From positions 308,450,001 to 308,514,000 of the forward strand of contig OZ024742.1 of assembly GCA_964016885.1 (NCBI GenBank): DNA of 64,000 nucleotides, in the 5' to 3' direction. Below, one piece after another: positions 4,190 to 52,751 of the stretch. A program made the position numbers and the translations under genes. How positions within the stretch are numbered: position 1 is the first letter of the stretch; each line of letters starts with the position of its first letter. Below the pieces are notes generated by a model. It had not been told where the DNA came from and searched no databases. It saw only the letters and a list, made by a program, of their open reading frames with translations. Source of the DNA: Eledone cirrhosa. Its lineage: Eukaryota.

Positions 4190-4392
4190 AGAAGTGGTTA
4201 CACAACAGTTAGTTCATAATACCGAGAAAAATTGTTTCACCTTAGCGGATCCTCAGCTCATTATGGATCCGCTAAGGTGAAACAATTGTTCTCGGTATGG
4301 TGAACTAAGTGTTGTGTAACCACTTCTACCTAACTCGTCCCATGGACTGAGTGCTCTACCACTACGGATATTATCTTCCAGTGTTATACCAC
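4190..4392. mobile_element. Foldback (hairpin + tail) element in a (TA)n tract; PLE-derived non-autonomous candidate
   Basis: ~63-bp inverted arms (4190-4252 / 4265-4328) plus a 64-bp tail, with (TA)n on both sides. A related copy with a shorter hairpin is at 52640-52751. Confidence 0.75.
4224..4259 (-). ncRNA. Minimal type-I hammerhead ribozyme motif
   Basis: Reverse complement reads gag-CTGAGGA-tccgctaaggt-GAAA-caattt-TT-ctc. The mirrored arm has the palindromic stem III GAAA-CAATTG-TT-ctc. Confidence 0.6.
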
Positions 4393-4420
4393 TATATATA
4401 TATATATAGAGAGAGAGAGA

Positions 4421-5835
4421 GCAGCTATTTCTAACACACCTATGGACCACCATGAAGTTCCCGTGTTTAGCTACTATTTCTAGCGCACTTATGGACCCCA
4501 GTGATGTTCCCCTTGTTTAGCTGATATAGCCGCTATTTCTAGCACACCTATGGACCACCATAATGTTCCCCTATTTAGCTGCTATTTCTAGCACACCTAT
4601 GGACCACCATGAAGTTTTCCCTTATTTAGTTGCTATTTCTCGCGCTCACCTATCAACCAGCATGAGGTTGCCCCTAATTAACTGATGTAGCTGTTACTAT
4701 TTCTAGCACACATACATTGGCCATCATAGGGTTCCCCTATTTAACTGCTATTTCTAGCACACATACGAGCCACCATGAGAATCTACCTATTTAGTTGCTA
4801 TTTATAATAAACCTATGGACCACCAAGATGTTCCCCCTGTTTTGCTTCTATTTCTAGCGCACCTATTTACCACTATGAGGTTTCCCATATTTACCTGCTA
4901 TTTCTAGCACACCTTTGGGCCACCATGGGGTTCCTCCTATTTAGCTGCTACTTCTAGCACATGTATGGACCACCATGATGTTCCCCCTATTTAGCTGCTA
5001 TTTCTAGCAGACATATGGGCCACCATGAGGTTCCCCGTTTTGCTGCTATTTCTAGCACACCTGTGGACGCCAGGAGGTTCCCCAATTTACCTGATGTAGC
5101 TTCTATGTCTAGCACATGTATGGATCACCATATCTGTTTCCCTTATTTAGCTGCTATTTCTAGCACAGAAATGGGCCACCATAAGGTTCCCCCTGTTTAG
5201 CTGATGTATTTGCTAATTCTAGCACATCTATGGTTACCATGGCTACACCTATTTAGCTGCTATTTCTAGTACACCTATGGACCACCATGAGGTTTCCCTT
5301 GTTTAGCTGCTTTTTCTAGCACATCTATATACCACCTTGAGGTACACCTATTTAGCTGCTATTTCTAGTACACCTATGGCCCACCATGACGTTCCCCTTG
5401 TTTAGCTGCTATTTCTAACACACCTATGTACCACCTTGAGGTAGACCTATTTAGCTGCTATTTCTAGCACACCTATATACCACCTTGAGGTACACCTATT
5501 TAGCTGCTATTTCCAGCACACCTATGTACCACCTTGAGGTACACCTATTTAGCTACTATTTCTAGCACACCTATGGACCACCATGAGGTTCCCCTTGTTT
5601 AGCTGCTATTTCTAGTACACATTGTCCACCATAATTTTCCCTTTATTTAGCTGCTATTTCTAGCACACTTATGCACCACCATGAGATTCCCCCTATTCGG
5701 CTGCTATTTCTAGCACACCTATGGATCACCATGAGGTTCCTACTATTTAGCTTCTATTTCTAGCGCACCGATGGACCACCCTGATGTTCCTCCTAATTAG
5801 CTGCTATTTCTAGGACCACCATGAAGTTCGCCTTT
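4421..5835 (+). repeat. ~50-bp minisatellite array
   Basis: Degenerate tandem unit 'tttagctgctatttctagcacacctatggaccaccatgaggttcccct', roughly 27-28 copies. Confidence 0.95.
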
Positions 5836-6440
5836 TTAGCTGATGTTGCTATTCCACTCATGTTTTCTGTTTAATTTTGGCTGGAGTTCGTTTATGTTTG
5901 TCGCCTCTGTGATTTGTCTGACCATTGCATCTTTTCTGCCTGTGGATATAATTTGTATCTCTATGTTCTCTAATGTGCCCCTATATTCTATTTTGACATG
6001 TTGGTAGAGTACTGATGAGTTTTTCCCATCCTGGAGTTCACCTATTCTTTCTCCTATGCTACGGGCTGTTTCACCTATGTATATTCTTATTCCTACCCTG
6101 TCACCCAGTACATCTTATGCTATATTCTACGTTCCTAGTTTTGCAGTCAGTTTGCGGCCTTAGTTTGCAGACTATGTATTTGCTATCAGCACAGGCGGAT
6201 CTTTGAAATGGGTATGTTTTACTAATTGAGGTTTTTATGGGAATACCTGATCTGTCAAATATCTTAATATTTAATTTGAGCTTGTCAAGGGTCCTAAATA
6301 TGTACGCTAGTTCGCCTTTAGGGGTTGTACTGACGAACATCCAGAGTTTTATTACAATAAATAAGAGGGACGGTTTTTTTCGTACATCCCTATTTTATTC
6401 GGTATTTCGAAGATGTAAGCTTGTAAATATGGCATGGAGG
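5836..6440 (-). pseudogene. Penelope-like element fragment: linker plus GIY-YIG endonuclease (disrupted)
   Basis: Translates to ...DCKTRNVEYSIRCTG*...YIGETARSIGERIGEH...SSVLYQH...RQITEATNINELQPKLNRKHEWNSNIS*, with one in-frame TGA and a frameshift. Same family as 35690-35919. Confidence 0.85.
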
Positions 6441-6572
6441 AACTGTTAATCTATTCTATATATATATATACTTCCGGACTAGATTTTATTCACTTAGATA
6501 TTAATTTTAATTTTATATATTTGTACTGTGATGCTAATGTTATAATGTATTTATAAATGGCTAATTAATTAT

Positions 6573-6608
6573 TAACCCTAACCCTAACCTAACCCTAACG
6601 CCAACCCT
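6573..6608 (+). repeat. Interstitial telomere-like (TAACCC)n repeat
   Basis: taaccctaaccctaacctaaccctaacgccaaccct. Confidence 0.6.
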
Positions 6609-6804
6609 CAATTTGTTACATTTAAATGCCAATACAAATCCAATACATGATGTGATGAATTACATTGAAACCGATAGTAATTTATATATTTGATAAAAAT
6701 CCCACTTCTTTTCAGAAAATGCTTTCTCCTTTTTACACTTCCGTGCTGTTTCCATACTTCCTTTTCTTCTATACTCTACGATTTGTATAGAACTTTACAC
6801 CCTT

Positions 6805-7290
6805 GCTAGTCCATAGGTGTGTTAGAAATAGGAGCTAAATTTCGGGTACCAAATGGTAGTCCATAGGTGTGCTAGAAATCGAAGCTAAATAAGGGAACCT
6901 CATGGTGGCCCATATGTATCCTAGAAAACGCAGCAAAACGGAAAACGTCATGCTGGTCCATAGGTGTGCTAGAAATAACAGCTAAACAGGATGAACCCCA
7001 TGGTGGTCAATAGATGTGCTAGAAATTGTAGTAAATTTGGGGAACCACCTGGTGTTCTATAGGTCTGCTAGATATTGCAACTAAGTAAAAGAACCTTATG
7101 TTGGCCACTAGGTATGCTAGAAATAGAGCAAAACATAGGTACTCATGATGGACCATATGTGTGCTAGAAAAAGCAGCTAAATGGGGGGCATCATGAAGTT
7201 CCGTAGGTGGGCTAGAAATAACAGCTAAATAGGTGGAACCCCATGGTGGTCAATAGATGTGCTAGAATTAGCGGCTAAATAGGAGGAAAA
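6805..7290 (-). repeat. Inverted, more diverged array of the same ~50-bp minisatellite
   Basis: Repeated 'ccataggtgtgctagaaata.cagctaaat', the reverse complement of the 4421-5835 unit. Confidence 0.9.
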
Positions 7291-7294
7291 TTGA

Positions 7295-7978
7295 TAGTAG
7301 AAGGGTCAGTGATAAGCACATTTTTCAAACGCAGGTAGGATCAATAGAAGTGGTTGATAGCCTTCAATATCTAGGAGATCAGATTAGCAAGGGAGGAGGA
7401 GGATGCTCTAAGGCCATAATATCTAGAATAAGGACAGGATGGAAGAAGTTTAGGGAGCTGCTTCCTCTGTTGACAATGACGGGTTACTCCTTTCGAATGA
7501 AAGGTCGTTGCATGATGCCTGTGAGGGATGCACGATGCTGCATTGTAGTGACACATGGGCAGTGGCTGCAGAGGATATGCTAAGGCATGAAAGAAATGAA
7601 GCAAGCATACTCCGTTGGATGTTCAATGTCAATGTGTGTGAGCGACCAAGCATGGGCGAGTTGAGAGGGAAACTGTTTAAAAGGAATAAAAAGTATTGTT
7701 CAAGAGAGAAGACTACGTTGGTATAACCATGTGATGCGCATGGACGATGATCACTGGGTGAAGAAGTGCCAAGAAATCCCGGTCGAAGTAAGATGCGGTA
7801 GAGGAAGACCACGAAAAACATGGGCAGAGATGGTGAGAGCTGACCTCAGATCGCTAAGCTCACAGAAGAGTTGATGAAGGACCGTGACGTATAGAGAGAT
7901 GCTGTGCTGAAGAGGACACATCCCACTCTTGCAAGCAAGGAAAAGTGGACGTAAAATGAAGAAGATGATGATGATGAT
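7295..7978 (+). mobile_element. 5'-truncated RTE-clade LINE, RT C-terminus and 3' tail
   Basis: Across frameshifts: DSLQYLGDQI...SRIRTGWKKFRELLPLL...DTWA...ERNEASILRWM...RLRWYNHVMRM...GRGRPRKTW. Ends in a (GAT)n tail. Confidence 0.9.
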
Positions 7979-8098
7979 ATATTTATATATTTATTTATTT
8001 ATTTACAAATATATTAGTAAAGATTAATGTTTAAGCAAAGAATCGCTGTTTTCACCCTATTACGGGATCTTCTGAGTAATAGGGTGATATCTATATGC

Positions 8099-8187
<89 letters not shown>

Positions 8188-8212
8188 CAAAGCTATGTTC
8201 AAATCATTTTAT

Positions 8213-8259
8213 TGCTGACATTCGTTTCTTCCAAACTATCGTTTGAAATCATCGGAGCA
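8213..8259 (-). ncRNA. Degenerate hammerhead motif 3' of the Naiad element
   Basis: Reverse complement: tgct-CCGATGA-tttcaaac gata gtttggaa-GAAA-cgaatg-TC-agca. Stems I and II pair; the core has U4>C. Confidence 0.5.
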
Positions 8260-9062
8260 TTAGCCATGTCTGTACATATAATTAACCACCTGTTCAATTG
8301 AACAATCATATAGATACATGGATATTAATGCTGTCAACAACAGTTTCGTATTTACAGAGTGGAATGGATGCGACATAGATTTCGAGAGAATTGTACAATA
8401 ATTATAATTTAAATTTAAATGTTAAAAAGCACAGAGTGGAATGCATCCGACAGAGATTAGTAAAAATATTAGAGACATTAAGGTAGAAAGTTACTCCTGA
8501 AACGAGGACACTAGCAGTATATATGCAAGCGTATAGAGAGTGCAAATGCAATAGGCATATACAGAAAGGAAACAAGCAATGGCACTAGGTATATATAATT
8601 TCTGCGAGACAAAGGTATCACATGAAACAACATATGTTTACAAGCAGGCAAAGCTGTTTTTGTATTAACATTATTAGTTTATGGTGGATGTAGTGTGATA
8701 ATTGTTTCTGTAATGTTCAAATGTGTATGTGCTGAGAGTATCAATGTTATTGCTATCTTTTCCATTACATTGGCTATGTTTTATTTTAGTGAATGTTTTT
8801 AATCAGTCACAGCCATGGATTGTATACCCGTCCTAATATATTGTTATCCGGGGTTCGAGTTGTTGTCGAGTGATTCCTCTAACGGTTTAATTTCCGGAAG
8901 TGAGTTTGATCTATATTAAGGGGAGCTAATACGAAAGGGGAGGTAACTAGCGATTACATTGTAAATAAATTTGGAAAAATGTAAAGTTGTTTACAGCTAC
9001 AGTTAGTTAAAATTCTTTGTGTTGCTATACATTATATTGCGTCATAAGTGAATCCCTTTTAT

Positions 9063-9190
9063 ATAATTGTTTCTACTTTAGGCACAAGGCCAGCAATTAC
9101 CCAGTGAATTACTGGTACTTTATTTTATCGAGCCCGTAAGGATGAAAGGCAAAGTCAACCTCGGCGGGATTTGAACTCAGATCGTAAAGG
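9063..9190 (-). mobile_element. SINE family A fragment
   Basis: tttaggcacaaggccagcaatt...ggtactttattttatcga...gatgaaaggcaaagtcaacctcggcgggatttgaactcag. Confidence 0.75.
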
Positions 9191-9771
9191 GACATAACTA
9201 TGCTAGAAACCCTTTTATATAATGCTATTTGTTTGTGTTTTATTTTAAATATAATCTATTTTACATTAAAGGTCTCATTATATTGTTATCTATCCATTAT
9301 AGAATAAAGTATATGTAATGTATAGGAAATGGGTAAGAATGTATAGTTGTTTACAGATCTAATTAGTTAAAACTCTTGTATATATATATATGAGATTCAC
9401 TTATAACATAATATAATATACATTATATTATGTTATAAGTGAATCTCATATATATATATAATGCTTTTAATTTATATATTTAATTATTAATACAATTTAT
9501 ATTCCTATACTACATTAAGTGTATCATCATATTATTATTTATCCATTCCTGAATATAATATAAGCAAGACATAGTGGTTATATTAAATGGTGTTAGTTTT
9601 ATATTTATTCCTAATAGTTATTGTACAATATAAAGTTTGAGATAAAAAGGAGTTAGGTAGAGTGATGAGCTGATCACATAGTGTGGTGCTGTGGGGGTAC
9701 TAATATGCTGATAAGACCTAGAGGTGAAGTGTTAATGGTGGTGAGGAATTCAGATCTGACATTGTTATATA

Positions 9772-12070
9772 TCAGCAGCTAGATTTAAAGCTATGGAAAG
9801 AGTATCGGTGGTAGTGCTGGCACATCGAAAAAACCTCTGATTTTCTATTTACGAGGTCTAGCTTAGAATAGATTATTGTTCGGGTCTCTAGAAGACAGAG
9901 GTTACGTAATTTATTTGGTGGTTTATACGATGCGGCCCTATCTACTATCTCCCATTGAAGTGTATATGTTCTATTCCTAGATATCAGAGAGTGTATGTAA
10001 CTGGATAAACAAGTGGAGTTGGCTAGATTGCGATTTTTGAACGTGTGGAGATGCGAGTTATACCTCGTCTGGAAGCAGTTCGAAGTTGAACCGATATATG
10101 TTTTAGAAGAGTTGTTTGTGTTGACTGTGCATGAGTAAATGATGTCTTTGGTTAAGTAATTTTTACCTAAGGGGAAAGTTCTATTTGTTCTACAGTTACA
10201 GTTATTCTGGTTGTTTGCTTGCTGGTTACTATGTTGTGTAGATGCCTGGTTGTTAGGGATAGCATTAGGGTAATGATGGTTGTCATTCCCATTGTTATTA
10301 ATTTCATTAGTGCTATTATCATTATTATTATTGTTACTAGAAATCTCTGGTACTATGTTGCCCCTTGTTGTGATTTAATTAGTTGGAAATAATTATTAAT
10401 CTTCCTTTTATTACTACTAGCTATATGGTATGCGATGTTAGGTGTAGTAGAGTAAGAGATTCTAATGATATTTTTATTGATAAGATTATGGTATTCGAGG
10501 CCGGCTGGGAAGTTCTTTTCCAGGATTTGAGAAGAAAGCCTTCGGAAAGTTGGTAGAGGCGTTTAGATTGAAAGGGGGATTGAAGAATGTATTAGTTCTT
10601 CTATTTCTGTTTTTTTGTAATGTTACTTGAGGTATTGTTTATATTTCTGTATATATTATTATTGTGGTGTTTATTCTGGTGCGAGATAAGTTTGATATTA
10701 CCCTTTGTATTAGATTTAGAGTGACTAGTACTTTTATTATTTTTCCTCATGGCTATATTGTGAGAAATAATGTTGTAACTAGGTGATTTTACCGGTAGAA
10801 ATTTAATCTCATTTTTATGTCCTGGTTTAGCTAAGGCTTCATTATAGTATTGGGAATTATTGTTAAATATGGTTTCGTTATGTGATAGATTAGAGATTCT
10901 ATTTGATATTCCTTTAGTAATTGAGTTTAATATAGATTTAGGGTGGTTAGAGTTGATATCTACATAAAGTAGTTTTTCGTTTGGTTTATGAAAGGGTGTA
11001 TATATTTGAGAGTCTAGGTAAATGGTAACATCAATGAAGTTAACGATTTTAGTGTTTTTATCTAAGGTGATACCCAAGTTGAAGTTTTTGAAAATGTTAT
11101 GTAATTGTTTCCTAGTTCTTTCTATATTAATTTATTTATAATCAATAAGAAGTAGTGCATCATCGCGGTATAAACCACCATCGAGGTAGGGTAGGTTCCT
11201 ATGAATTTCATTTAAGAGATATAGGCCGATCAAATCGGTGACCTGTGCCGAGTCACTAGACCCCATAGTTATGTCAAAGTTGTTATGTGTATCCTTGCGG
11301 GTCCATAATTGATCTTCAAAAGTAATTATGGTTTTTCGAGTCGCAAGGATGACATCAATTTCGGATCTAGTAAGGTCACTATTGTTCATTGCCATAATTA
11401 ATGCCTTATTTAATAGGATAGGGGAAATAGAAGTGTAGTATGAATTAATATCAAATTTTATAATTTTTTTATTTTTATTCTCTTTAATATTATTGAACCA
11501 TTCAATAACTTCACCAGTATTTCCCCACTGGTTAAGATATATTTTATGCTTAAATTGTGGGAAGATTCTATGTAATATTTTCTTGCTGATAATTCCAATG
11601 TCAGATTTGGAAGGGCAAATTAGTCTTATAGAAGAGTTACTATTGAACCTTATGGTTTTTTCAGAGAGAATCTTTGAGGGGGCGGGATTAGGGGTGTATG
11701 GCTGTGTATGTCTCTGAAGTCCTAATTTACACACTATACTATGGCCTTCTATATTTATATCTTCTAGGTTTTTAATAGTGGTTTTCTTATAGCTCCTATG
11801 TAGTTCTTTATATATAAATTTTCTATATGTATCGTAATCCAGGCTATATATATTATTAGTTTTATCTGCATGTACAAGAATTCTTTTTTTTTTTATTAAA
11901 TCCTTTAATAGAGGAGTTAAGATTGTTTAAGAAGGTATTGTTCCTATTATGATGTTTTTGTACCTTATATTCTTAACTAGTTTTATTAGATTATTTTCGA
12001 AAGAGTTTAATAAGGAGTTGTGCGGAGGGCTTTTAAAAGTTTTATATTCCGGCTCTGTAAAACATCTCAT
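9772..12070 (-). pseudogene. Near full-length decayed Penelope-like retroelement ORF, Naiad-type (RT plus C-terminal GIY-YIG)
   Basis: Joined across frameshifts: MRCFTEPEYKTFKSPP..FENNL; ADKTNNIY; RLICPSKSDIG; QWGNT; FDINSYYTSI; MGSSDSAQVTDLIG; GLYRDDAL; NFIDVT; SNHP; FFNPPF; ISYSTTPN; CNCR..(C>F)PLG; IIYSCTV..YIGSTS..FQTRYNSH; LCLLE; LVNRKSE..CQH. These motifs match my knowledge of Naiad-clade PLEs. Confidence 0.9.
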
Positions 12071-12239
12071 GTATTTTTCTTACTGATAATAAGGTAGTAA
12101 TAAATTACTGACCTTTCATCTTTATAGTTGTATATAGTGTATACATAACTATAAATAATATTATTATATTTCGTTTCTGAATTTGTTTAGCAAGATTCTT
12201 TATTGGCAACATGACCCTCCCAAAGTATAACAATATTAT

Positions 12240-12510
<271 letters not shown>

Positions 12511-17186: not shown

Positions 17187-21380
<4,194 letters not shown>

Positions 21381-21383
<3 letters not shown>

Positions 21384-21872
21384 ATGTATATATAATGTAT
21401 TTTGCAATACATTTTATGCTTAATTAAAAGCATTTTGAAGACCGTAAGCTATTGTTTTTTAGAGTAGTGACAAATTCACTTACTTTGATCACAGCAAACA
21501 GGGGAGATAAGCCGACAAGGCCGTGTTTCGCTTTTGTTGAAGATTACCAAGGCTAACTACTCTCACCTGTCTACCGAGATCACTGATGTTATATTCTTAT
21601 AGAATTCTAGTAAATAATCAGGAGCTGATTATGCAGAGCGGTTGTTGGTCAGTCAGAAATTAAAAATTAGAATTGGAGCTCTGAAATAGCAATATATATA
21701 TATGGATGTATATATAATGTATTTTGCAATACACTTTATGCTTAATTAAAAGCATTTTGAGACCGTAAGCTATTGTTTTTTAGAGTAGTGACAAATGCAG
21801 CATAAAGTGTATTGCAAAATACATTTTCTATACATCCATATATATATTGCTATTTCAGAGCTCCAATTCTAA
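21381..21872. mobile_element. Non-coding element with partial direct repeat and inverted segment (PLE pLTR-like) in (TA)n
   Basis: 21381-21476 is repeated at ~21702-21796; ~21799-21872 is the reverse complement of ~21667-21741. A diverged relative is at 38127-38725. Confidence 0.65.
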
Positions 21873-24380: not shown

Positions 24381-24384
<4 letters not shown>

Positions 24385-25138
24385 TAATAATAATAAATTT
24401 GAAGACTAAAATCCAACGAGGGCTCGATTTGGATAAATATATATCAACTATATAAGAACCGTAGAGCAAGTATTTATTAAAATAACAGATTAAAGTTTAA
24501 GCAAAGAATCGCTGCTTTCACCCTTAAAGGGATCTTCTGAAACTAACAAAGTCAATCTGTAAACGCAGAAGTGGATATTTCAAAAACCGTTGCAACCGGA
24601 GGAAGACCGGGAGACGATACTTTGGTTCGTGGAAACGTTGCCTATTCAAATAGGTAATGGTATAAACAAAACATATACTTAGCTACCACATCAAGACGTA
24701 AAATATCCACGTATAGATCGTACTATCCGTTAGGGTATAATGTAGGGCAGTAATACAAGAAAGTTTTGTGCAATGTATGTTTACAAGCCGAAATTGCCTG
24801 AGATTTTTTGTTTAATATGTGGTCTGTGGCGTAGAGTATTTCTAGGGCCTCAGCGGCGCAGAGGTCACATGGTCTTTTATTTCCGTTATACGATCTAGCC
24901 CTAGCTAGGATCTCCCAGTATAACTTAAATTGGGTGTGGTTGTCTTTTAGACTCCAGATATAAGCTGAAAGTGTGGTAGCTAAGTATATGTTTTGTTTAT
25001 ACCATTATTTACATGCAACGTTTTTTGAAATATCCACTTCTGCGTTTACAGATTGACTTTGTTAGTTTCAGAAGAGCCTGTTAAGGGTGAAAGCAGCAAT
25101 TCTTTGCTTAGACTTTAATCTGTTATTTTAATAAATAT
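24381..25138. mobile_element. Foldback element with nested inverted repeats in (TA)n
   Basis: 24471-24594 is the reverse complement of 25014-25138, and ~24654-24689 of ~24972-25006. Pieces recur at 8020-8075, 52468-52570 and 1-50. Confidence 0.7.
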
Positions 25139-30946: not shown

Positions 30947-31270
<324 letters not shown>

Positions 31271-33353: not shown

Positions 33354-33438
<85 letters not shown>

Positions 33439-33442
<4 letters not shown>

Positions 33443-34741: not shown

Positions 34742-35032
34742 AAGGCTTCATACATAGAACAATTGGACCAGTATTTAATATGAACTCAATGCAAAATGTG
34801 TCAAAAATCGGACACATGAACACAGCAGCTGAGTATATATATATCACAATTTTTATTATTGCCGTTCCATACGAGTGCCATGCTGATCGATGTGTTGTCC
34901 ACTAAAGACTGGTTGAGACAACTACGCTAGTCCTAGAGTGTGATATTGAAACGATCGTATGGAACAGATTAAGTAAAGAGAACCATGTGCGTGTGTGTGC
35001 ATGCTCGTGTAGGTGTATGTGTAGGTGTGTGA

Positions 35033-35229: not shown

Positions 35230-35609
35230 TGTGTGTGTGTGTGTGTCTGTGTGTGTGTGTGTGTGTGTGACCCTGAAAGTTTTACAAAATGTTTAAAAAA
35301 TGTGTCATGATTTTTGTCAAAAGTTCAATGGTATACATTTTTCTATTATTTTGATTATTTCAACCTTTCTGGTGAACTGCCTTCACGAGGCAGTTATTTC
35401 ATCGTTCTCAAAGACAAGAAATTCAAGTGACAGAAATACAGATCAAAACCACAAAAAAATGATTGCGAAACAAAAAGACTTTATAACCACCTATGCTAAC
35501 ATGCCATATATGTCTCCTTATTTGCTGCCAAGATAATATGATGTATTACAATACATCATATTGTAACTTATATAGATATGAACATAGCTATAACATACAT
35601 ACGAATACT

Positions 35610-35648
<39 letters not shown>

Positions 35649-35689
35649 TGTATGTATACTGAACACTGTATATATATATACTGTATGTA

Positions 35690-36372
35690 TAAATGAACAC
35701 TGGCGAGAGCTTCAAGATAGAAAAGAATCATCTGTACTCCACCAACATGCTAAAATAGAACATAAGGGTAAATTAGAGAACATAGAAATAAAAATAGAAT
35801 CTCCACACAGAAAAGACGCAATGTTTAGACAAATCACAGAGGCAATAAAGATTATTGAACTCCAACCAAAATTAAATAGAAAACATGAATGGAATAGCAA
35901 CATAACAACTTACAATTAAGGACAAAATGAAAACACACACACACATAGAACAAACAACCAACCAGTAACATGTAAATAAACAAATAAATAAACAAATATA
36001 AACACACACAGACACCGGATGTAATACATGCGCAAACTAAGTACACAACACACACAAAAACAAGATGGCGTAGGACAGAACGAAGGAGAGGCACAAAAAC
36101 AAAGAAAAGGATCCCAGTCACTGAAGAGGTCACAGAATGTGTGACGAAAGAATTTTGACAATATATGAACAGCCGTCCGGTTGTGGAACCAACCAACCAA
36201 CCGGAAATTTATAAATTCTTAAATTTATAAATTTAATTTATAATACATTGGAGTGCACAGCTGGTGCGTGTGTTTCTTATTGGCAACATGACCCTCCCAA
36301 AGCATAACAATATCGGTTTCAACACGTTTTCAGATAAAGAATCTTGCTAAACAAATTCAGAAACGAAATATA
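35690..36372 (+). mobile_element. 5'-truncated PLE: GIY-YIG C-terminus, 3' UTR with HHR, and tail
   Basis: INEHWRELQDRKESSVLHQH...RQITEAIKIIELQPKLNRKHEWNSNI; flanked by (TA)n. Confidence 0.85.
36117..36159 (+). ncRNA. Hammerhead motif in PLE 3' UTR
   Basis: gtca-CTGAAGA-g-gtcaca gaatg tgtgac-GAAA-gaat-TT-tgac. Stems I and II are perfect; stem III is imperfect. Confidence 0.6.
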
Positions 36373-38126: not shown

Positions 38127-38130
<4 letters not shown>

Positions 38131-38719
38131 GATTGGTGCTCTGAAATAGCGATGTATATATGAATGTATGTATAATATATTTGGCAATATACCGTATGTT
38201 TCATTAAAAACATTTAGAAGACCATACGCTATCGGTTTTAAATAGAGACTATGTCACTTACTTCGTTTCGGCGAAAGAAGCGAGAAAAGCTAACAGTATG
38301 TTCCACGCACCCCTGCTTCCACCGAAAAGTATAGAAGCTGGATTCATATAGAATTCCAGTAATAATCATAGTCACCTCTTTAGAACCGATAGTGTATGGT
38401 CTTCTAAATGTTTTTAATTAAACATACGGTATATTGCCAAATATACTATACATACATTCATGTATACATCACTATTTCAGAGACCCAATTTTTGTTGGAC
38501 CGGCAATTGCTCTGTATGATAAGCTCTTGATTATTACTGGAATTCTATAATAATCAAGCTTCTATAATTTTCAGCGGAAGCAGGGGGTGCGTGGCTCTGA
38601 TGAACGTCCAACCAGCGAAAAGAAGTGACATAGTCACTACTTTAAAACCGATAGCATATGGTCTTCTAAATGTTTTTTTATTAAACATACAGTATATTGC
38701 TAAATATACTATACATACA

Positions 38720-38725
<6 letters not shown>
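38127..38725. mobile_element. Non-coding element with one forward and two inverted partial units, flanked by (TA)n
   Basis: 38130-38240 is mirrored at ~38380-38490 and ~38640-38725; related to 21381-21872. Confidence 0.65.
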
Positions 38726-38780: not shown

Positions 38781-38897
38781 AGAGTCAGGACCCATGGGAT
38801 CCTAACTCTTTTCCTATTATTCACTCTACTACCCTAAGTGTCGAGTAATCTTGTGCGTTATGGTCCACCTGGTTTCTTACCACACTTTCTTTGTTAT
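38776..38897. mobile_element. Short hairpin plus tail element (family of 30947-31154)
   Basis: Hairpin gaaaagagt...actcttttc, then the shared tail cctatt...cactctactacc...gtgcgtta.ggtccac...cttaccaca. Confidence 0.65.
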
Positions 38898-39959: not shown

Positions 39960-40148
39960 ATATAATATAAGATCAAAAGATGGTTAAAACAGTTCCATGT
40001 ATTTTATTAAATGCGCATAATAAAATACATGGAACTCTTTTAACCATCTTTTCATCTTATATTATTTATACTCCAGTCCTACAAACTGTAGAGTGCTACT
40101 TATCCGATATCTGCATCGCTTTATTGTACTAAAATAAAACTCACCTCC

Positions 40149-40150
<2 letters not shown>
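39958..40150. mobile_element. Foldback (~48-bp arms) plus tail in (TA)n
   Basis: ataatataagatcaaaagatggttaaaacagttccatgtattttatt / aataaaatacatggaactcttttaaccatcttttcatcttatattat. Confidence 0.7.
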
Positions 40151-40195
<45 letters not shown>

Positions 40196-40904: not shown

Positions 40905-41257
40905 TATGTATAACTTACACCATGCTGTTAGACCAGTTGAGGCCCTCCTTTGAATAACAGGTGAATATTAATTCATACTTTCAAAGAATTCCATTGGACT
41001 TGGCTCAGTTCTTCAATGTTGATTCATTTTACTTTATGTAATGGAATGACCAATATTATGTAAGCTGGAATATGCAGCAATGGCGAAATTATTAGTGGGG
41101 TAGGCTTCATTTAGGAATCTACCTAGAGTTAACTTTGTATAAGTTGTTATATATATGTTGACCTAATTCTCGAAGTGATATTTTTAGCTCTCATTTATTG
41201 AGATTTTCTGCATATCAGTGACAAATAACTTTCTCCTTGATACCGAACGGATTTTTA

Positions 41258-41626
41258 AGTTACGGGAAAATATACCAGATAATCTTATGCACAAGTATGT
41301 GTACATCTCGCGTTACGAAAATTTGAAAATTGTACTTAGGGAGGGTCATACAGTCAATCAAATATACAGACACTGGTAGAATTTGACCATGCCATCTTCT
41401 GTAACCAGTGTGTGGCGTCATTACATTTTCCGTCCACTAACTCCCACTCATGAATTATTGAGTTACTGAACATGGGAAATTACTGAATTGGTTAATAAAA
41501 CAGAAGACAACTACAACCAGTGCCTGTATCTTTGATTGACCGTGCAAAGTACAATTTTCAAATTTCCATAACGCGAAATACACACATATTTGGGCAAGCG
41601 ATTACCTGGTATATTTTCCCGTAACT
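41258..41626. mobile_element. MITE with ~120-bp imperfect TIRs and TTA duplication (PIF/Harbinger-like)
   Basis: TTA|agttacgggaaaatatacca...tggtatattttcccgtaact|TTA; the inverted match extends through 'ttgaaaattgtactt' and 'tcaatcaaa..tacag.cactggt'. Confidence 0.7.
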
Positions 41627-43274
41627 TTAGGTCATATTTCTTCAGATAATTTAATGTGGGTTCATAAATAAAATTCAGTCAATCCTGAAAGAATATATAA
41701 CTAAAATCAAGGGCATCGCAGCTACGTTTAGTAAAGCAATTAACAGTACTGCAATATTCCATATAAATTTAGTATATTTGTAGTAACCTCTTTGAATATA
41801 TATTTTCTGCTGTCACCAGTATACAAATGTGATTATATTATTTCTCCTAACAAAATATCCTTTAGGAAGAAACTCCGAATAAATAAGCTTTTCCCTCCAC
41901 AAAATCAACTTTATTTCTTGTAACTAAAAGCAACAGAGTTGGAATACATTATGCATTTTGCTGTTAACAATCGAGACAGAGTTTATTCACTTTTCAGCTT
42001 TTTCCTTGTCATCTGTGCTTCCTTCCTCTTGTTTATTTACTCTTTCCTTCTCACTTGTCATAGCTTCCTACATTTTTATTATTTCTACTGGTTATACTAG
42101 CTTCTTCCTTCTGATTTCTCTGACAAGCTTTTCACCTTTTCTTTTTTCTTCCACTTGCCGTTTGTTTTCATGGTTCTTTATATTCATATTTGGTCACTTA
42201 AAATTATTGCACTCTCCAATTCTAAAAGTATTCTATATTTCTTTTGTATATAGAGTTTATGGTCGTTTTTTTTTCGATGATAAAAGGGCAGTGAACAAGA
42301 CACTTTAATGGAATGCGGTGCTGGTGAATGGAATAGAACTAAAAAGGTATCATCAAACCGGTGACCTAATTCAAATACTTACAATAGAGTGAACCCCGCT
42401 AAAGGCACTCAACGTCCAAGTTAAACCGGATGCCGCATTAAGTCTTACTAAAGTAAGTCACAACATGTCTTAAACTCAGAATACAGAAAGGCAAAACAAA
42501 TCCTGCAAAGCATCACATTCAATGGTCTAACTTACTTCTTAATCCACCGAAAGGATAAAAGGCATCGTTGACTTTTTCGAGATTTGAACTGAAAACACAG
42601 AAACAACCTTTATCAAGTACAGCAACGTATTTCGTCCTACGCTCTAACCACCCCGCCAAATTGCCGTGAGTGTTGGTATTGTTGTACCTTACTGTAGAAT
42701 AATATATAGGTGATAAGTCAACGATACTAACGCTGATACTTCTATACAGGTGATAGGTCAACGATACTAACTCTGATACTTCTAAATCTCATTTTTCTTG
42801 TACCCGTTCGAAACATTATGATAGTTGCTGAAAACTTATGAATCTGACTTCCTAAACGATTTTCACTTCCTCCACAATTTATATTGCTATTCAATAAATC
42901 ATAGAAAATAAATTATTCTAAAAACAAAATGCTTTCGAACCCTCCTATTCAAATGGCAGCATATGTCGGTTTGTTGAATTTAACAAACCGTTAAAAATTT
43001 CCATTTCTATTTATTTGCACAGTCTTCTATGTAATGAGATAACATGAAACTTGATCCGTGATATTTCTCAGTTTCATATTATGTCTAGCTAGCAGGCTTT
43101 TATGTTGGTACAAAAAACTTCATTTTACTTTTATTACTTGCCTAACTGAGTTTTGTACGGGCATAAAAACTTACAAGGTGCCACTGAACATTATAGGCTC
43201 GGCGTTTGAGTTAAGTTAATTTAACGGAACAGAGTAAAAGAATATATGAATATACACACACATATATATATATA

Positions 43275-43546: not shown

Positions 43547-43617
<71 letters not shown>

Positions 43618-44016: not shown

Positions 44017-44092
<76 letters not shown>

Positions 44093-44476
44093 TAAAGGTT
44101 AACATATACATAAAGTTATAGATATATACATGTTGCAACTGGTCACTTTTAAGCTCTATGAAGAGTTAATAAATTAAAAAATTAGAGCAATATATCATAA
44201 ATCATGTCTTTAGAATCATCAGATAAAATATATACTATTTCTTCTTCTAATTAGCATAATTAAACACATAAGAAATCAATTAGATCAAGCTATAAGAAGA
44301 AAGGCTCTTATGGAGAAAACTCTGACAAATAACCGAACGTAGCCTCTTCGCGGTGGTCCCAATCGAGTATTTATCCAACATTTCGACAGCATGTAGAAAT
44401 TGACTAAATATACCATCAACCATACACAATTAGGTGTAAAATTAAACTTAGAAGAAATGCGTACATACCGTAATTA

Positions 44477-44555
44477 TATCTCTACCATGGTTTCATCCTT
44501 ATTTTTAGACATCCAAATAATAGGAATGTCCTGAGTTAGGATTCATCAGGAGACA
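44477..44555 (-). ncRNA. Type-I hammerhead ribozyme
   Basis: Reverse complement of 45442-45520. Confidence 0.85.
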
Positions 44556-45441
44556 AACTCAAAATCAGACATCTAGTTTTTCAATCCGATCCCGCCAAAA
44601 ATAGATTAAAAAATGGCTAAGAATCGCTATGTGGCTGTGGTCAAGCCAGAAAGAATGAGATTGGTTGCTTACGGCGGGTAGGCTTGCTGCTAGAAAGCGC
44701 AGCCAAATATCGCCAAATTTAATCTCAACCTATCGAGAGATTATTAAATATAAATGTTAACATATACATAAAGTTATAGATATATACATGTTGCAACTGG
44801 TCACTTTTAAGCTCTATGAAGAATTAATAAATTAAAAAATCAGAGCAATATATCATAAATCATGTCTTTAGAATCATCAGATAAAATATATACTATTTCT
44901 TCTTCTAATTAGCATAATTAACCACAAAAAAAATCAATTAGATCAAGCTATAAGAAGAAAGGCTCTTATGGAGAAATCTCCGACAACTAACCGAACGTAG
45001 CCTCTTCGCGGTGGCCCCAATCGAGTATTTATCCAACATTTCATTATAGCTTGATCTAATTGATTTTTTATGTGGTTAATTATGCTAATTAGAAGAAGAA
45101 ATAGTATATATTTTATCTGATGATTCTAAAGACATGATTTATGATATATTGCTCTGATTTTTTAATTTATTAATTCTTCATAGAGCTTAAAAGTGACCAG
45201 TTGCAACATGTATATATCTATAACTTTATGTATATGTTAACCTTTATATTTAATAATCTCCCGATAGGTTGAGATTAAATTTGGCGATATTTGGCTGCGC
45301 TTTCTAGCAGCAAGCCTACCCGCCGTAAGCAACCAATCACATTCTTTCTGGCTTGACCACAGCCACATAGCAATCCTTAGCCATTTTTTAATCTATTTTT
45401 GGCGGGATCGGATTGAAAAGCTAGATGTCTGATTTTGAGTT

Positions 45442-45520
45442 TGTCTCCTGATGAATCCTAACTCAGGACATTCCTATTATTTGGATGTCTAAAAATAAGG
45501 ATGAAACCATGGTAGAGATA
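45442..45520 (+). ncRNA. Type-I hammerhead ribozyme with palindromic stem III
   Basis: tgtctc-CTGATGA-atcct...aggat-GAAA-CCATGG-TA-gagata. Intact core, 6-bp stem I, 5-bp base of stem II, GUA cleavage triplet. Confidence 0.85.
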
Positions 45521-45796
45521 TAATTACGGTATGTACGCATTTCTTCTAAGTTTAATGTTACACCTAATTGTGTATGGTTGATGATATATTTAGTCAATTT
45601 TTACATGCTGTCGAAATGTTGGATAAATACTCGATTGGGGCCACCGCGAAGAGGCTACGTTCGGTTATTTGTCGGAGATTTCTCCATAAGAGCCTTTCTT
45701 ATAGCTTGATCTAATTGATTTTTTATGTGGTTAATTATGCTAATTAGAAGAAGAAATAGTATATATTTTATCTGATGATTCTAAAGACATGATTTA

Positions 45797-45845
<49 letters not shown>

Positions 45846-46304
45846 AGTATGTATGTATGTATACGTACATACATATATGTATACAGACGTACAGTAGTAT
45901 GTATATATATACATACATGCAAAGATAGATATATATATGCACGTATCAGTTTACCGAACATTTATTATAATGTTCGGTTTGTTTGTTTGTAAACAAACAA
46001 ACAGCCCGAATTACGCCGTACAGAGTTTAGGCAACCACGTCACCTTTGTGTTCGACACAGGAACGATGTACTAGTTTCAAGCTTATTAGCTAGTGTCAGC
46101 ATCGTATACCTTCCTGCCAGATGGTTGAACGTCTGAAACTATATACTTTCCTTATACATATTAACGGTTGAGCAGCCTAATTTGCATATCGAGTAAGTTC
46201 AGTCGGCCGGGCGCACCGAAAAGGGTGTTCAATCGGGGGTAACCACAGTAAGTAAGATACTCAATACATAGCCGAATATAAATATTTGATATAGAAATTG
46301 CTTC

Positions 46305-46388
46305 TACAGTACTAGAACTGTTTCATTCGCAAGAAATCTTCAGGGCTTCCTGAAGATTTCTCTCGAATGAAACAGTTCTAGTCCTGTA
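46305..46388. repeat. Small foldback with an HHR-like core in each arm
   Basis: tacagtactagaactgtttcattcg..agaaatcttcagg gctt cCTGAAGAtttctctcgaatGAAAcagttcTAgtcctgta. Confidence 0.5.
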
Positions 46389-46401
46389 AATTCCATTTCT
46401 T

Positions 46402-46451
<50 letters not shown>

Positions 46452-46941: not shown

Positions 46942-46981
<40 letters not shown>

Positions 46982-47309: not shown

Positions 47310-47367
47310 CTTAAATAAAGCCCCTTGTTGTACAGTCAACCATGTTACTCTTCATTCTTTCACTATA

Positions 47368-48693: not shown

Positions 48694-48732
<39 letters not shown>

Positions 48733-48736
<4 letters not shown>

Positions 48737-49348
48737 TAAATCATGTCTTTAGAATCATCAGATATTAAAATATATACTATTTCTTCTTCTAATTAGCATA
48801 ATTAACCATATACAAAATCAAATCTAGCTAGCTTTAGGAATAAATTTTCTTATGGGGAAATCTCTGACAAACAATCGATCGTAGCCTCTTCGCGGCAGCC
48901 CCGTTCAATTATTTATCGAACATTTCGACAGCATGCAGACTTCGACTAAATATATCATCAACCACACACAATTAGTAGTAAAATTAAACTTAGAAGAAAT
49001 GCGCACATACCGTAATTATATCCCTACCATGGTTTCTTCCTTATTTAGGACATCCAAATAATTTGAATTTCCAGAGTTAGTTTCATCAGGGGATAAACTC
49101 AAAATCAGACATTTAGTTTTTCAATCCGATCCCGCCAAATTTAGATTCAAAAATGGCTAAAAATCGCTATGTAGCTGTGTTCCAGCCAGAGAGAAAGAGT
49201 GTGATTGGTTGCTTACGGCGGGTAGGCTTGCTGCTAGAAAGCACAGCCATATATCGCCAAATTTAATCTCAACCAATTGGGAGATTATTAAATATAAAGG
49301 TTATCATATACATAAAATTAAAGATATATATATGTTGCAACTGTTCAC
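48733..49348 (-). mobile_element. Diverged, circularly permuted monomer of the 658-bp retrozyme-like unit
   Basis: Homologous throughout to 44192-44805 and flanked by (TA)n. Its HHR (49019-49095) reads tatccc-CTGATGA...GAAA-CCATGG-TA-gggata. Confidence 0.8.
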
Positions 49349-49906: not shown

Positions 49907-49939
<33 letters not shown>

Positions 49940-50306: not shown

Positions 50307-50815
50307 CCAGCAGCAGTACCCAGCGTTGCCTGTGTAGGTAAAATAATATGTGCTTTGATGACTGCGAGTTTCTTGAAAATCGGTCGTAAGGTGTAGCAAA
50401 TGGCGAAATGTTGAGTGAAATCGTATGGAATATGTGGGAGGTGGAATAAATCGTATTTTGAAGAGTTAAACGGCTGCCACGCCGTCCCTGAACAAAAAAT
50501 GCAAAGTGTAAAGCTACTATAAGATGTGCAATGATAGGTTCTATCGTAGTATAAACGTTGAACCAAATAAATTGATTTATGTGTGAAGTGGAGCTGAAGT
50601 TTCGAATTTGAACGAAATCGGTTGAGAAATGTGGGAGCTAATGATAGGTCGCCATTCCTGAACAAAAGATGCAAAGTGTAAAGCTACTATAAGATGTGCA
50701 ATGATATGTTCTATCGTAGTATAAAAGTTGAACCAAATAAATTGATTTATGTGTGAGGTGGAGCCGAAGTTTCGAAATTGAACGAAATTGGTTGAAAAAT
50801 GTGGGAGCTAGAGCC
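50307..50815 (-). mobile_element. Helitron-like non-autonomous fragment with an internal 171-bp duplication
   Basis: Reverse-complement 3' end ggcaacgctgggtactgctgCTGG|T; duplicated block ~50487-50640 / ~50658-50811. Confidence 0.55.
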
Positions 50816-50819
50816 GAAT

Positions 50820-52230
50820 AGGTGCATATTAAAGGGAAATTGTCTTAGGATATAAATGTAAAAATAGCACTAAGGACTCAACTTATTCATATATAGGATC
50901 TACTTCTAACCAATTTAAAGTAAGATTTAATACCCACAAACATAGTTTTTAAAATTCCGCATTAGCTAATACAATATCCTTGGCTGAAACAATTAATAAT
51001 TATAGAAAAAAGAATACCGATTACAACCTGAGCTGGAGTATGCTCAAAACCCCTTATCAAAATAACAGATATGAGAGTAGATTATGCTCCCAGGAACTTT
51101 TTGAAATAGTTGTTTCTACTTTAGGCACAAGGCCAGCAATTAATCAGTACATTACTGGTACTTTATTTTATCGACCCCGTAATGATGAAAGCAAAGTTAA
51201 CCTCGGCGGGATTTGAACTAATGAAATCTAAGGATATCCTATTAAATAAGCGACAAGAATTAATTATATCTTGCAATCATAGAATTAGAAAAAACTTTCA
51301 AATATTATAAACCTAATTAATATACACCTTAAACTTATATTTTACATATTATTATAATTAGTATTTTAATTTAGTTAACCTATAATTAGTACTTTACTAC
51401 AGAGAACTTCATAATTTTATTTCCCTCTAACAGCTCTATTTTCCTAAAATTAATACCTAAAAGTATACATATAAATTAATTTAATTTCCTGTTATGAATC
51501 TAAATTCCTTGTAGTTTATATAAAATTGGTATCTCTCACTAATACATTTATTCCAAAAATGTTATTTTCCATCGTTTTTAACAACACTCTTTAATAACAT
51601 CTAATTCTTATTTATCACATCCATATGAATTAATATAAATTTATCCCTATAAGTATACTTATCAATCAATTTAATTTCTTGTTATGGATCTAAATTCCTT
51701 GTGTTTTAAATAAGATTGGTATTTCTCACTAACAACTTTACCCTAAAACTTTATTCTCCCTCGGTTTTAACATTAGCATTATTCTTTAATAACATCAAAT
51801 TTTCGTGTACCTTTCACCGGCTTGACCTCTTTTCATCCCCAAAGTATTCTTTTCATTCAAAGTATTCTTTCCATTCAAAACTTAAGTTTGCATTCCTCTA
51901 CCCCTAAATTAAATTTCTACTAATACTATTCTATCAACTTGACCTCTTACTACTTTTCTATTGGTCAATTCAAAACCTGTTCCCAAACAGACCTACTATA
52001 TTAAACCTGTGTTGGGTTTTTCAATAAACAAATATCATTATTTCTGAAGACAGCATATATATGTGAAGGTATGTATATTTCCTCTGATAGTTTTTAAAAT
52101 CTTTACATAGATTTATATTATATACATACCAACACACATATATATCCTAGAAACGATCGTAAAATGATGAATTTTTTAATATAAGGAACTTGTTCTTTGT
52201 TTTTATTCATTGTTTTTATTAATTTATATA
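50820..52230 (+). mobile_element. Decayed Naiad-type PLE 3' fragment (GIY-YIG, UTR, HHR) interrupted by SINE A at 51106-51220
   Basis: CILKGNCL..YKC...YIGSTSNQFKVRFNTHKHSF...LSWS...LCSQELFEI [SINE] MKSKDILLNKRQELIISCNH. Confidence 0.8.
52035..52170 (+). ncRNA. Type-I hammerhead ribozyme with long stem II
   Basis: tcattattt-CTGAAGA-..atatatatgtg...cacatatatat..-GAAA-CGATCG-TA-aaatgatga. 9-bp stem I and palindromic stem III. Confidence 0.8.
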
Positions 52231-52639
52231 TATGTATACATACATTGTATGCAATAACAGAGTATGAGAATAATACAATGATAATATATTAATTTACCGC
52301 CTGAGATATTTGGAAAAGTGTCGTAAAGTTTGGGTCTCTTATCTTTCAACGGAAGAAGCTAAAAGACCTAAAAGAGGGGGTTAAGGAGAGAGAGAAGGAG
52401 AAAGAGAACAGACATGAGAAAAAAAGTAGAGAGGAGAGATATTATGTTTGTAGTCAGCCATATATATATAGTAATAATAATAAATTTGAAGACTAAATTC
52501 CAAAGAGGGCTCGATAAGGATAAATATGTATCAAATATATAAGAACCGTAGAACAAATATTTTAATAAATATATATATAAGGGTGTTTAACTCTAACACA
52601 CTCTAGTATTTTAATTCTTATATATACATATATATATAT

Positions 52640-52751
52640 AGAAGTGGTTACACAACAGTTAGTTCACTGTTGTGTAACAACTTCTACCTAACTCGTCACA
52701 TAGACTGAGTGCTCTATCAATACGGATATTGCCTTCCAGTGTTCTACCACC
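52640..52751. mobile_element. Short hairpin plus tail element (family of 4190-4392)
   Basis: Same start (gaagtggttacacaacagttagttca) and same tail (tacctaactcgtc...ttccagtgtt.taccac), with most of the hairpin absent. Confidence 0.75.

What the first reader, a model, noticed from the sequence alone, without database searches (positions are those of the whole stretch)
4190..52751. A recurring 'foldback + short tail inside (TA)n' architecture shared by many unrelated sequences
Seen: at least nine insertions with inverted arms, usually a ~60-105-bp one-sided tail, and (TA)n on the flanks (4190, 15041, 24381, 30947, 31493, 38776, 39958, 46305, 52640). Within a family the tail is constant but hairpin length varies (4190 vs 52640; 30947 vs 38776). 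Several arms contain HHR cores or halves. This does not fit MITE architecture, because the inversion is not terminal on both sides. Inference: these are extreme 5'-truncated PLE insertions in which cDNA synthesis folded back or switched strand, generating palindromes at microsatellites on a large scale.
Basis: partly seen in the sequence, partly recalled or inferred. Interest (0 to 1): 0.75.

Follow-up and report, generated by a model that had tools for sequence, protein, structure and literature searches.

The report
Twin-primed Penelope run-off palindromes
The hairpin-plus-tail inserts are real, very abundant pieces of a known kind of jumping gene (Penelope-like retrotransposons) and a related non-coding unit, and their fixed ends suggest they likely form when both strands of a cut TA repeat copy the same RNA and run off its capped front end, which would expose a step of this class's poorly known copying cycle.

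Summary
All nine inserts are real (18 local inverted pairs versus 0-1 in shuffles). They belong to seven families: five link to Hydra-clade Penelope-like ORFs, one is a retrozyme-type unit, one link is unproven. Single families give 4,000-11,500 exact motif matches. Inverted copy plus one-sided tail is a published PLE layout.

Simple cDNA fold-back is disfavoured. All 87 resolved pairs carry exactly one tail. The tail-less arm is often the longer one (27 versus 12), and six tailed arms hold only tail. Both arms share subfamily variants in two families, so one RNA likely templates both.

Arm inner ends are not random truncations. They pile up at a family-specific base, 4 to about 85 nt before the ribozyme core, 29-30 nt behind a TATA box in two families, often with an added G. 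Long arms pair with long arms (33 of 38).

Best reading (0.6): twin target-primed copying from two start sites, running off the capped RNA leader. Seven paper searches did not find this stated. This scan noted the layout in this genome and the cap run-off idea in other genomes. No RNA data could be tested.

The parts
4191..4259 (-). Family A tail-less arm (ends at internal site S1 next to TA); carries an intact hammerhead core on the minus strand
4265..4392 (+). Family A tailed arm 4265-4326 plus 66-nt tail 4327-4392 (ends at S2)
   Evidence: family links to a GIY-YIG ORF in L017/L096/L349
52641..52750 (+). Family A short copy: arms of about 21-26 nt, tail 52685-52750
30950..31007 (-). Family B tail-less arm, inner end exactly at candidate +1
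31016..31153 (+). Family B tailed arm from candidate +1 (31016) to S1 (31073), then 80-nt tail; 8-nt filler 31008-31015
   Evidence: full-length 3,547-bp unit with RT + GIY-YIG ORF in L081/L082/L352
38777..38895 (+). Family B-related subfamily: arms of about 17-25 nt, tail 38815-38895
39963..40151 (+). Family D: arms of about 50 nt (well short of candidate +1), 89-nt tail
   Evidence: 821-aa open frame in L353
31496..31880 (+). Family E: tail-less arm 31496-31611 (antisense), tailed arm from about +4 (31612) to 31790, 90-nt tail; hammerhead cores on both strands
   Evidence: ORF pieces in L345/L346
15042..15433 (+). Family F: perfect palindrome of about 139-nt arms plus 111-nt tail; end of a 485-bp hammerhead-bearing unit that forms tandem arrays elsewhere (retrozyme type)
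24382..24960 (-). Family G tailed arm: tail 24382-24473, arm, then C-terminus of a Hydra-type endonuclease (about 24690-24960)
24972..25134 (+). Family G tail-less arm with an internal gap
46225..46400 (-). Family C: tail on the left (about 46225-46292), tailed arm 46293-46344, tail-less arm 46345-46400 starting at candidate +1 (30 nt behind a TATA box in long copies)
   Evidence: link to an ORF not shown
9393..12240 (-). Degraded near-full-length PLE of the same type (RT with DKT and YRDD, C-terminal GIY-YIG) with a small palindrome at 9393-9446

Best explanation
These inserts are ends of Hydra-clade Penelope-like retrotransposons (one is a related retrozyme-type unit) joined head to head in (TA)n, and they likely form by twin target-primed reverse transcription of one RNA that often runs off the RNA's capped 5' end. 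Shown: each family has two fixed outer ends, S1 and S2, separated by the tail; a pair has one of each; inner ends pile up at a family-specific base. Inferred: the element protein, probably as a dimer, nicks both strands of the self-complementary TA repeat; one 3' end primes at S1 and the other at S2 of the same RNA. On a capped transcript both copies stop after about 58-185 nt at the cap, often adding a C opposite it (read as an extra G). The S2 copy has to pass the S1 copy and is more often cut short. The two cDNA ends are end-joined with 0-2 nt overlap or a short filler, and repair makes the palindrome. Long and full-length copies would come from RNA with no 5' end at that place (tandem read-through or a ribozyme-made circle), so the short palindromes are dead-end by-products.
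For: PLE identity: ORFs with RT and C-terminal GIY-YIG linked to tails in A, B, D, E, G; Hydra motifs (definitions from PMC8557442); predicted fold pLDDT 93.6 with telomerase TERT as best PDB match. One tail per pair: 87 of 87 resolved pairs in position-ordered samples of B, A, D, E (7 rows with an unresolved arm and 1 duplicate row left out). Tail-less arm reaches 8 nt or more further 5' in 27 pairs, tailed arm in 12 (23 vs 3 in B+D+E, p=9e-5); six tailed arms hold only tail. One template: shared-variant discordance within vs between insertions D 3/280 (0.011) vs 0.382, E 3/75 (0.040) vs 0.460. Hard edge: D 3,271 matches ending at +1 with a non-templated letter vs 110 at +7, of which 15 of 30 checked were point changes; B edge at -57 to -61; C mode 30 nt behind TATAAATA, 16 arms. 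Extra G: 11 of 20 unexplained letters at +1 vs 9 of 45 at internal ends, p=0.008; G:A 48:8 at +1 vs 27:26 at +6 in B (by-eye counts of the 100 listed rows); both arms carry it in L277, L437, L440. The edge lies about 4 (B), 5 (C), 8 (A), 70 (D) and 85 (E) nt before the ribozyme core, so it does not track the ribozyme. Long arms pair with long arms in 33 of 38; 0 of 11 resolved 5' ends of body-containing B copies lie at +1. In vitro precedent: a PLE nicks and extends both strands, starts at two sites flanking the tail, and needs RNA downstream of them (PMC11167929). Cap-derived G is reported for full-length L1 inserts (PMC11702581).
Against: No RNA data: the transcription start is inferred, not mapped. 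A, D and E lack a canonical TATA box at -30. Family A has a diffuse edge, 29 of 68 arms long, and the opposite length bias (4 vs 9); its arms differ at shared variants almost as much within as between insertions (0.104 vs 0.161); B had no usable variant columns. Unexplained G is also common at B +6 (9 of 30 loci by reading), so it may be a second start or a general habit of the enzyme. 44 of 100 letters before B +1 are C, partly templated by a sister subfamily. Several G's could come from the partner arm. The D +7 control pattern covers fewer subfamilies than the +1 pattern. Three of the nine window copies (38776, 39958, 52640) end far inside the leader. Later deletion at palindrome centres could blur arm lengths. 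Four long-range pairs are mixed.
Confidence: 0.6

Rival explanations
1. One cDNA primed at the tail end folds back on itself, copies itself to S1 and is resolved there; unequal arms come from later deletion at the palindrome centre (the first reader's mechanism; Arkhipova 2013 proposed self-priming on an antisense template).
For: Both arms share variants in D and E; one tail per pair and long/long concordance follow naturally; three D joints overlap at a 6-nt palindrome; PMC3846280 Discussion.
Against: It predicts tailed arm >= tail-less arm; seen 3 vs 23 the other way in B+D+E, with six tail-only arms, three of them 96-99% identical to the reference. 33 of 49 B rows have 0-2 nt overlap, and joints such as L437 have a 1-nt centre between two G-capped arms. 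Tail-less arms also occur alone, and both sites are initiation sites in vitro.
Confidence: 0.13
2. Twin priming is right, but the template is a separate short capped RNA made from 3' or solo pseudo-LTRs, so the short palindromes behave like a non-autonomous family and not as abortive copies of the mRNA leader.
For: Only 176 tail-to-body junctions vs 9,829 arm matches in B; the 15041 family is a genuine non-coding 485-bp unit; Penelope has an internal promoter element (PMC2377424).
Against: Four short B derivatives run from near +1 through the tail into the ORF start (L172, L173, L184, L192), so mRNA leaders are used; the in vitro PLE needs RNA beyond the start sites; joints differ in nearly every copy, so palindromes are not copied as units.
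Confidence: 0.15
3. The edge is a reverse-transcriptase block at RNA structure or bound protein on a long RNA, with G added by general terminal-transferase or repair activity; there is no cap run-off.
For: In A, B and C the edge sits just before the ribozyme; G also appears at B +6; a few tailed B arms stop 3-7 nt upstream of the predicted cleavage site.
Against: Edge-to-ribozyme distance varies from 4 to about 85 nt; TATA spacing of 29-30 nt in B and C; G enrichment over internal ends; a block acting on each arm separately would not give 11 of 12 long/long pairs in B.
Confidence: 0.1
4. The palindromes are assembly or chimeric-read artefacts, or MITEs.
For: One fetched locus (L342) is a 7.5-kb inverted duplication that includes flanks; palindromes are a known library artefact (own knowledge).
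Against: Fixed ends, one tail per pair, arms diverged up to about 7%, joints and loose ends in raw reads of other samples, link to RT ORFs and no terminal inverted repeats on both ends.
Confidence: 0.02

Closest known systems
Hydra clade of C-terminal EN+ Penelope-like elements (Craig et al. 2021, PMC8557442; passages and supplement rows seen), including Hydra-1_Obim of Octopus bimaculoides
   Same: RT followed by GIY-YIG, RW and DKT motifs, CxCX5C linker, no CCHH, CxxC and CxH near the end, (TA)n target, hammerhead in the pseudo-LTR.
   Different: Units here are about 3.5-3.7 kb (the clade is described as generally under 3 kb); the third residue of RWK is R, T or C; no tree was built and identity to Hydra-1_Obim was not tested.
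Complex EN+ PLE insertions: inverted 5'-truncated copy plus optional tail (PMC3846280 passages and Discussion; PMC8557442 passages)
   Same: Head-to-head inverted copy, tail at one end, palindrome at the joint.
   Different: Tails are 66-111 nt, not 30-40; here the tail is on exactly one arm in 87 of 87 pairs; inner ends are fixed at a likely transcription start, which those passages do not report; they invoke self-priming or endonuclease resolution.
Poseidon PAc of Anolis in vitro (Frangieh et al. 2024, PMC11167929; parts 1-2 of 4 read)
   Same: Two internal start sites flanking the tail, both DNA strands nicked and extended, AT-rich target, predicted dimer, ribozyme cleavage not needed.
   Different: Different clade; the text read does not link this to inverted inserts, strict one-tail pairing or run-off at the cap. 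Its supplements were not read.
L1 twin priming and cap-derived 5' G (PMC11702581, passages)
   Same: Second target strand primes internally on the same RNA; extra G at ends that reach the cap.
   Different: L1 primes at poly(A) and at variable internal sites and gives mostly non-overlapping segments; here both sites are fixed and the arms usually overlap.
Retroviral minus-strand strong-stop DNA (recalled, no call)
   Same: Short cDNA primed near the RNA 5' end that runs off the cap.
   Different: Primed by target DNA, two copies, inserted as a dead end; no sign that homologous transfer to the 3' repeat is the main route to long copies.
Non-LTR retrozymes (bioRxiv 10.64898/2026.07.22.740005, passages)
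   Same: 15041 family: 485-bp hammerhead-bearing tandem unit.
   Different: It also shows the S1/S2 inverted layout; circular RNA not testable here.

Membership tests
Hydra-clade PLE | Single ORF with telomerase-like RT and C-terminal GIY-YIG | tested here: met
   786-aa and 821-aa open frames in B and D, pieces in A, E, G; best PDB match TERT. Pfam gave only a sub-threshold GIY-YIG hit.
Hydra-clade PLE | DKG motif changed to DKT; RWK-like motif | tested here: met
   DKT in B, D, E and the window ORF; RLRW in A, B, D. DKT not seen in the A and G pieces examined.
Hydra-clade PLE | CxCX5C linker; CCHH absent; CxxC and CxH flanking E and N | tested here: met
   A, B, D, E, G
Hydra-clade PLE | Insertion into (TA)n | tested here: met
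Hydra-clade PLE | Canonical hammerhead in the pseudo-LTR | tested here: inconclusive
   Canonical core by motif reading in A, C, D, E, F; variant core in B and G; cleavage not testable.
Hydra-clade PLE | Phylogenetic placement with named Hydra families | not tested
EN+ PLE complex insertion | Head-to-head inverted copy with tail at one end | tested here: met
   87 of 87 resolved pairs; 37 of 39 long-range rows
EN+ PLE complex insertion | Partial or full tandems forming pseudo-LTRs | tested here: met
   3.54-kb tandem arrays and partial tandems in B
Naiad/Chlamys PLE | N-terminal endonuclease | tested here: not met
   The endonuclease is C-terminal.
MITE | Terminal inverted repeats at both ends and fixed length | tested here: not met
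   One-sided tail; arm length varies from under 20 nt to several kb.
Non-LTR retrozyme (15041 only) | Short hammerhead-bearing unit in tandem arrays | tested here: met
   485-bp period, arrays of up to 10 listed matches
Non-LTR retrozyme (15041 only) | Self-cleavage and circular RNA | not testable with these tools
   No RNA run was available.
L1-type twin priming (works-like) | Both target strands prime on one RNA | tested here: inconclusive
   Supported indirectly; not observed directly.

The most novel reading that the evidence does not exclude
Endonuclease-bearing Penelope elements prime twice, at two fixed sites in the 5' leader of one RNA. On capped linear RNA this yields tens of thousands of double strong-stop palindromes that record the transcription start to the base; only circular or tandem read-through RNA yields long, promoter-bearing copies. 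One rule would then explain the tail, the inverted copy, the pseudo-LTR tandems and the purpose of the hammerhead.
Probability: 0.45. Interest if true: 0.75.

Novelty: new member of a known kind. Interest (0 to 1): 0.5.

Why it matters
How PLEs make their tandem and inverted structures and regenerate the pseudo-LTR is stated as open in PMC8557442 and PMC2377424. The copies here turn that into exact tests: a predicted transcription start for each of five families, one tail per insertion, and two template classes. They also show that much of the short palindromic DNA in this TA-rich 3-Gb genome (four families with 4,376 to 11,506 exact motif matches each) is PLE by-product that annotation could mislabel as MITE or SINE. 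The elements and the layout themselves are not new.

Tried and rejected
Rfam scan: dominated by microsatellite miRNA hits, none of the 150 rows shown reached a gathering score. Pfam and PDB sequence searches did not recognise the RT; the fold search did. First guess of Naiad dropped: the endonuclease is C-terminal and motifs fit Hydra. DNA search with the family B core returned nothing because its words are too common. No RNA holder listed; this says nothing about expression. Read laying on family D was dominated by restriction-site ends and did not test the +1 letter; one run showed a loose end at +1. The stop-at-ribozyme-cut idea was rejected as the main mode: only a few tailed B arms stop near it. 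Two random RNAs as templates rejected for D and E. Homologous strand transfer on linear mRNA as the main route to long copies is disfavoured. Single-sequence folding of eight tails gave no significant z-score (best -1.83). Family C: an endonuclease C-terminus lies 1.5 kb upstream in L541, but contiguity was not shown. The D +7 listing had an indexing error and was redone. First-letter counts are by eye. Empty versus filled alleles could not be compared, and target duplications cannot be seen inside (TA)n.
Full report
Setting. The window is G000:C3:308450001-308514000 in a 3.0-Gb, 1,796-contig animal genome, 31% GC and rich in (TA)n. An octopus-like host is my inference from size and repeat content; it was not verified.

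Observation. All nine sites have head-to-head arms and a one-sided tail. The masked window has 18 local inverted pairs at E<=1e-4; 20 shuffles gave 0 nineteen times and 1 once. The nine fall into seven families: A (4190, 52640), B (30947, 38776), C (46305), D (39958), E (31493), F (15041), G (24381). At 24381 and 46305 the tail is on the left, and 46305 lacks (TA)n on its tail side. Raw RAD reads from three other samples show opposite-strand joints in family B and 2,593-2,903 reads per run with a (TA)n loose end at the internal end S1. Three runs, possibly the source sample and so not independent, hold 86-88% of the sampled words around 4190.

Identity. [quoted passage not shown] Motifs match the Hydra clade as defined in PMC8557442: RW, DKT, CxCX5C, no CCHH, CxxC and CxH. 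That paper's supplement lists Hydra-1_Obim with (TA)n preference. The B protein has 653 homologues at E<=0.001 among 7,995 scored; its model (pLDDT 93.6) matches telomerase TERT best (E 2.3e-8). F is a 485-bp hammerhead-bearing unit in tandem arrays. For C the ORF link is unproven. Exact motif counts: B 9,829, A 4,376, D 11,506, E 5,252, with reversed controls at 0. B has 176 tail-to-body junctions.

Known layout. An inverted 5'-truncated copy with an optional tail is described for PLEs (PMC8557442; PMC3846280). PMC11167929 shows in vitro that a PLE nicks and extends both strands and starts at two sites that bracket the tail.

Test 1, tail state. I took the first pattern matches along contig C1 as position-ordered samples (B 90 of the first 100 listed matches, A 51 of 100, D 30 and E 30 of 100). 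All 87 pairs with both ends resolved have one arm ending at S1 and one at S2 (B 45, A 20, D 10, E 12). Seven rows with an unresolved arm and one duplicate row were left out. In 39 long-range rows, 37 have one tail; the exceptions are a 7.5-kb inverted duplication (L342) and a tandem junction (L343).

Test 2, which arm is longer. A fold-back of a tailed cDNA cannot make a tail-less arm longer than its template. The tail-less arm reaches at least 8 nt further in 27 pairs and the tailed arm in 12; in B, D and E it is 23 to 3 (p=9e-5), in A 4 to 9. Six tailed arms hold only tail. Of 49 B rows, 21 overlap by 1-2 nt, 12 are blunt, 4 overlap by 3-5 nt and 12 have filler.

Test 3, one template. At columns with shared variants, arms of one insertion differ at 3 of 280 (D) and 3 of 75 (E), against 0.38 and 0.46 between insertions. 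A is weak (20 of 193, against 0.16) and B had no such columns.

Test 4, the inner edge. B arms pile up 58 nt upstream of S1, with a few at 62, on an initiator-like site 29 nt behind a TATA-like box; a sister subfamily has TCAGT there. In D, 3,271 matches end at +1 with a non-templated letter, 2,323 read through, and 110 end or differ at +7, half of 30 checked being point changes (the +7 pattern covers fewer subfamilies). In C the modal start, 16 arms, is 30 nt behind TATAAATA. E has an edge at about 185 nt with more internal ends, and A is diffuse. The distance to the ribozyme core ranges from about 4 to 85 nt. The initiator and TATA labels rest on my knowledge of Pol II consensus, not on a call.

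Test 5, the added G. Among letters not explained by the partner arm, in loci not chosen for that letter, G is 11 of 20 at +1, 12 of 58 nearby and 9 of 45 at internal ends (p=0.008; two A ends upstream of +1 fell into the internal bin). By eye, the letter before +1 is G 48, C 44, A 8 of 100 in B and G 51, T 39, A 10 of 100 in D; at B +6 it is G 27, A 26, T 47. In C it is G in 13 of 16, some ambiguous. Against: 9 of 30 B +6 loci also show an unexplained G, and many C and some G letters are templated. A cap-derived G is reported for full-length L1 inserts.

Test 6, long copies. Of 38 long-range pairs, 33 are long on both arms, 3 pair a long arm with one at +1, 1 is long/short and 1 has both at +1. 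None of 11 resolved 5' ends of body-containing B copies lies at +1; they lie 99-1,387 nt upstream of S1, and some copies form arrays of four or more units. Four short derivatives run from near +1 through the tail into the ORF start and contain a jump back into the same RNA.

Mechanism. Shown: identity, two fixed outer ends, one-tail pairing, edge position, class concordance. Inferred: both strands nicked, twin priming on one RNA, run-off at a cap, collision shortening the tailed arm, end-joining, and circular or read-through RNA as the source of long copies. Of the nine window copies, 30947 has both arms at +1, 46305 one, 31493 one near it and 4190 both within 12 nt; 38776, 39958 and 52640 end well inside; 24381 is long; 15041 is the retrozyme-type unit.

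Novelty. The elements and layout are known. Paper searches listed no paper whose title or abstract opening states twin-primed cap run-off for PLEs; subscription papers are not covered, and the supplements of PMC11167929 and of the preprints were not seen and may bear on this. Papers seen: PMC11167929 parts 1-2 of 4 plus passages; PMC8557442 passages and supplement rows; PMC3846280 passages and Discussion; PMC2377424, PMC4209133, PMC13282606, PMC11702581 and bioRxiv 10.64898/2026.07.22.740005 passages only. This scan's earlier notes report the layout, Hydra assignment and twin priming in this genome and cap run-off in other genomes. I had stated that reading before opening them, and they are not counted as evidence. 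What this window adds is the edge being uncoupled from the ribozyme across families, the directional arm bias and the long/long rule.

Verdict. A real feature; new members of a known kind; a mechanism that is likely but untested at RNA level. Interest 0.5.

Noticed in passing
window 33438-34742: 466-bp tandem (2.8 copies) with a hammerhead-like motif on the minus strand in each unit (Rfam HH9 35-37 bits, below the 52-bit cut-off); retrozyme-like.
   Followed up: no
window 17187-18734: 495-bp tandem (3.1 copies, 99% alike) between TA arrays, with a CUGAUGA box near the unit junction; possibly another retrozyme.
   Followed up: no
window 44089-45798 and 48735-49348: Large palindrome with 657-bp arms at 98% and a partial tandem, between TA runs; a single 87% copy lies at 48735.
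   Followed up: no
window 21383-21871 and 38128-38721: Another family with nested inverted arms next to TA runs and a hammerhead core at 38597.
   Followed up: no
window 41257-41627, 57964-58068, 59483-59538: Older diverged palindromes (71-83%) without adjacent long TA runs.
   Followed up: no
window 4425-5813 and 6809-7281: A 50-bp minisatellite in two inverted blocks flanking a short (TAACCC)n run at 6573.
   Followed up: no
window 35542-35916 and 5843-6039: Short open frame that resembles an endonuclease C-terminus (recalled likeness; no Pfam hit), with an 82% inverted match at 5843.
   Followed up: partly
tails of families A, B, D, E (and C): Shared ACTC...GAGT stem starting 7-9 nt after S1 with a 12-17-nt spacer; candidate protein-binding mark for the start site; single-sequence folds not significant.
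   Followed up: partly
L172, L173, L184, L187, L192, L195: Short family B inserts in which copying jumped back to a downstream place of the same RNA after reaching about +1 or the ribozyme region.
   Followed up: partly
L148, L159, L166: Family B arms that start at +2 preceded by an unexplained GC dinucleotide.
   Followed up: no
L342:1-7473: 7.5-kb inverted duplication at 99% that includes flanks and has two tail-less ends; true duplication or assembly error.
   Followed up: no
L038-L041: Family A tail joined to a different upstream sequence, repeated in a 2.6-kb tandem; possibly a non-autonomous partner that shares the tail.
   Followed up: no
many fetched loci, e.g. L003, L028, L284: Different families stack side by side in the same TA run, since each insertion leaves (TA)n targets on both sides.
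   Followed up: no
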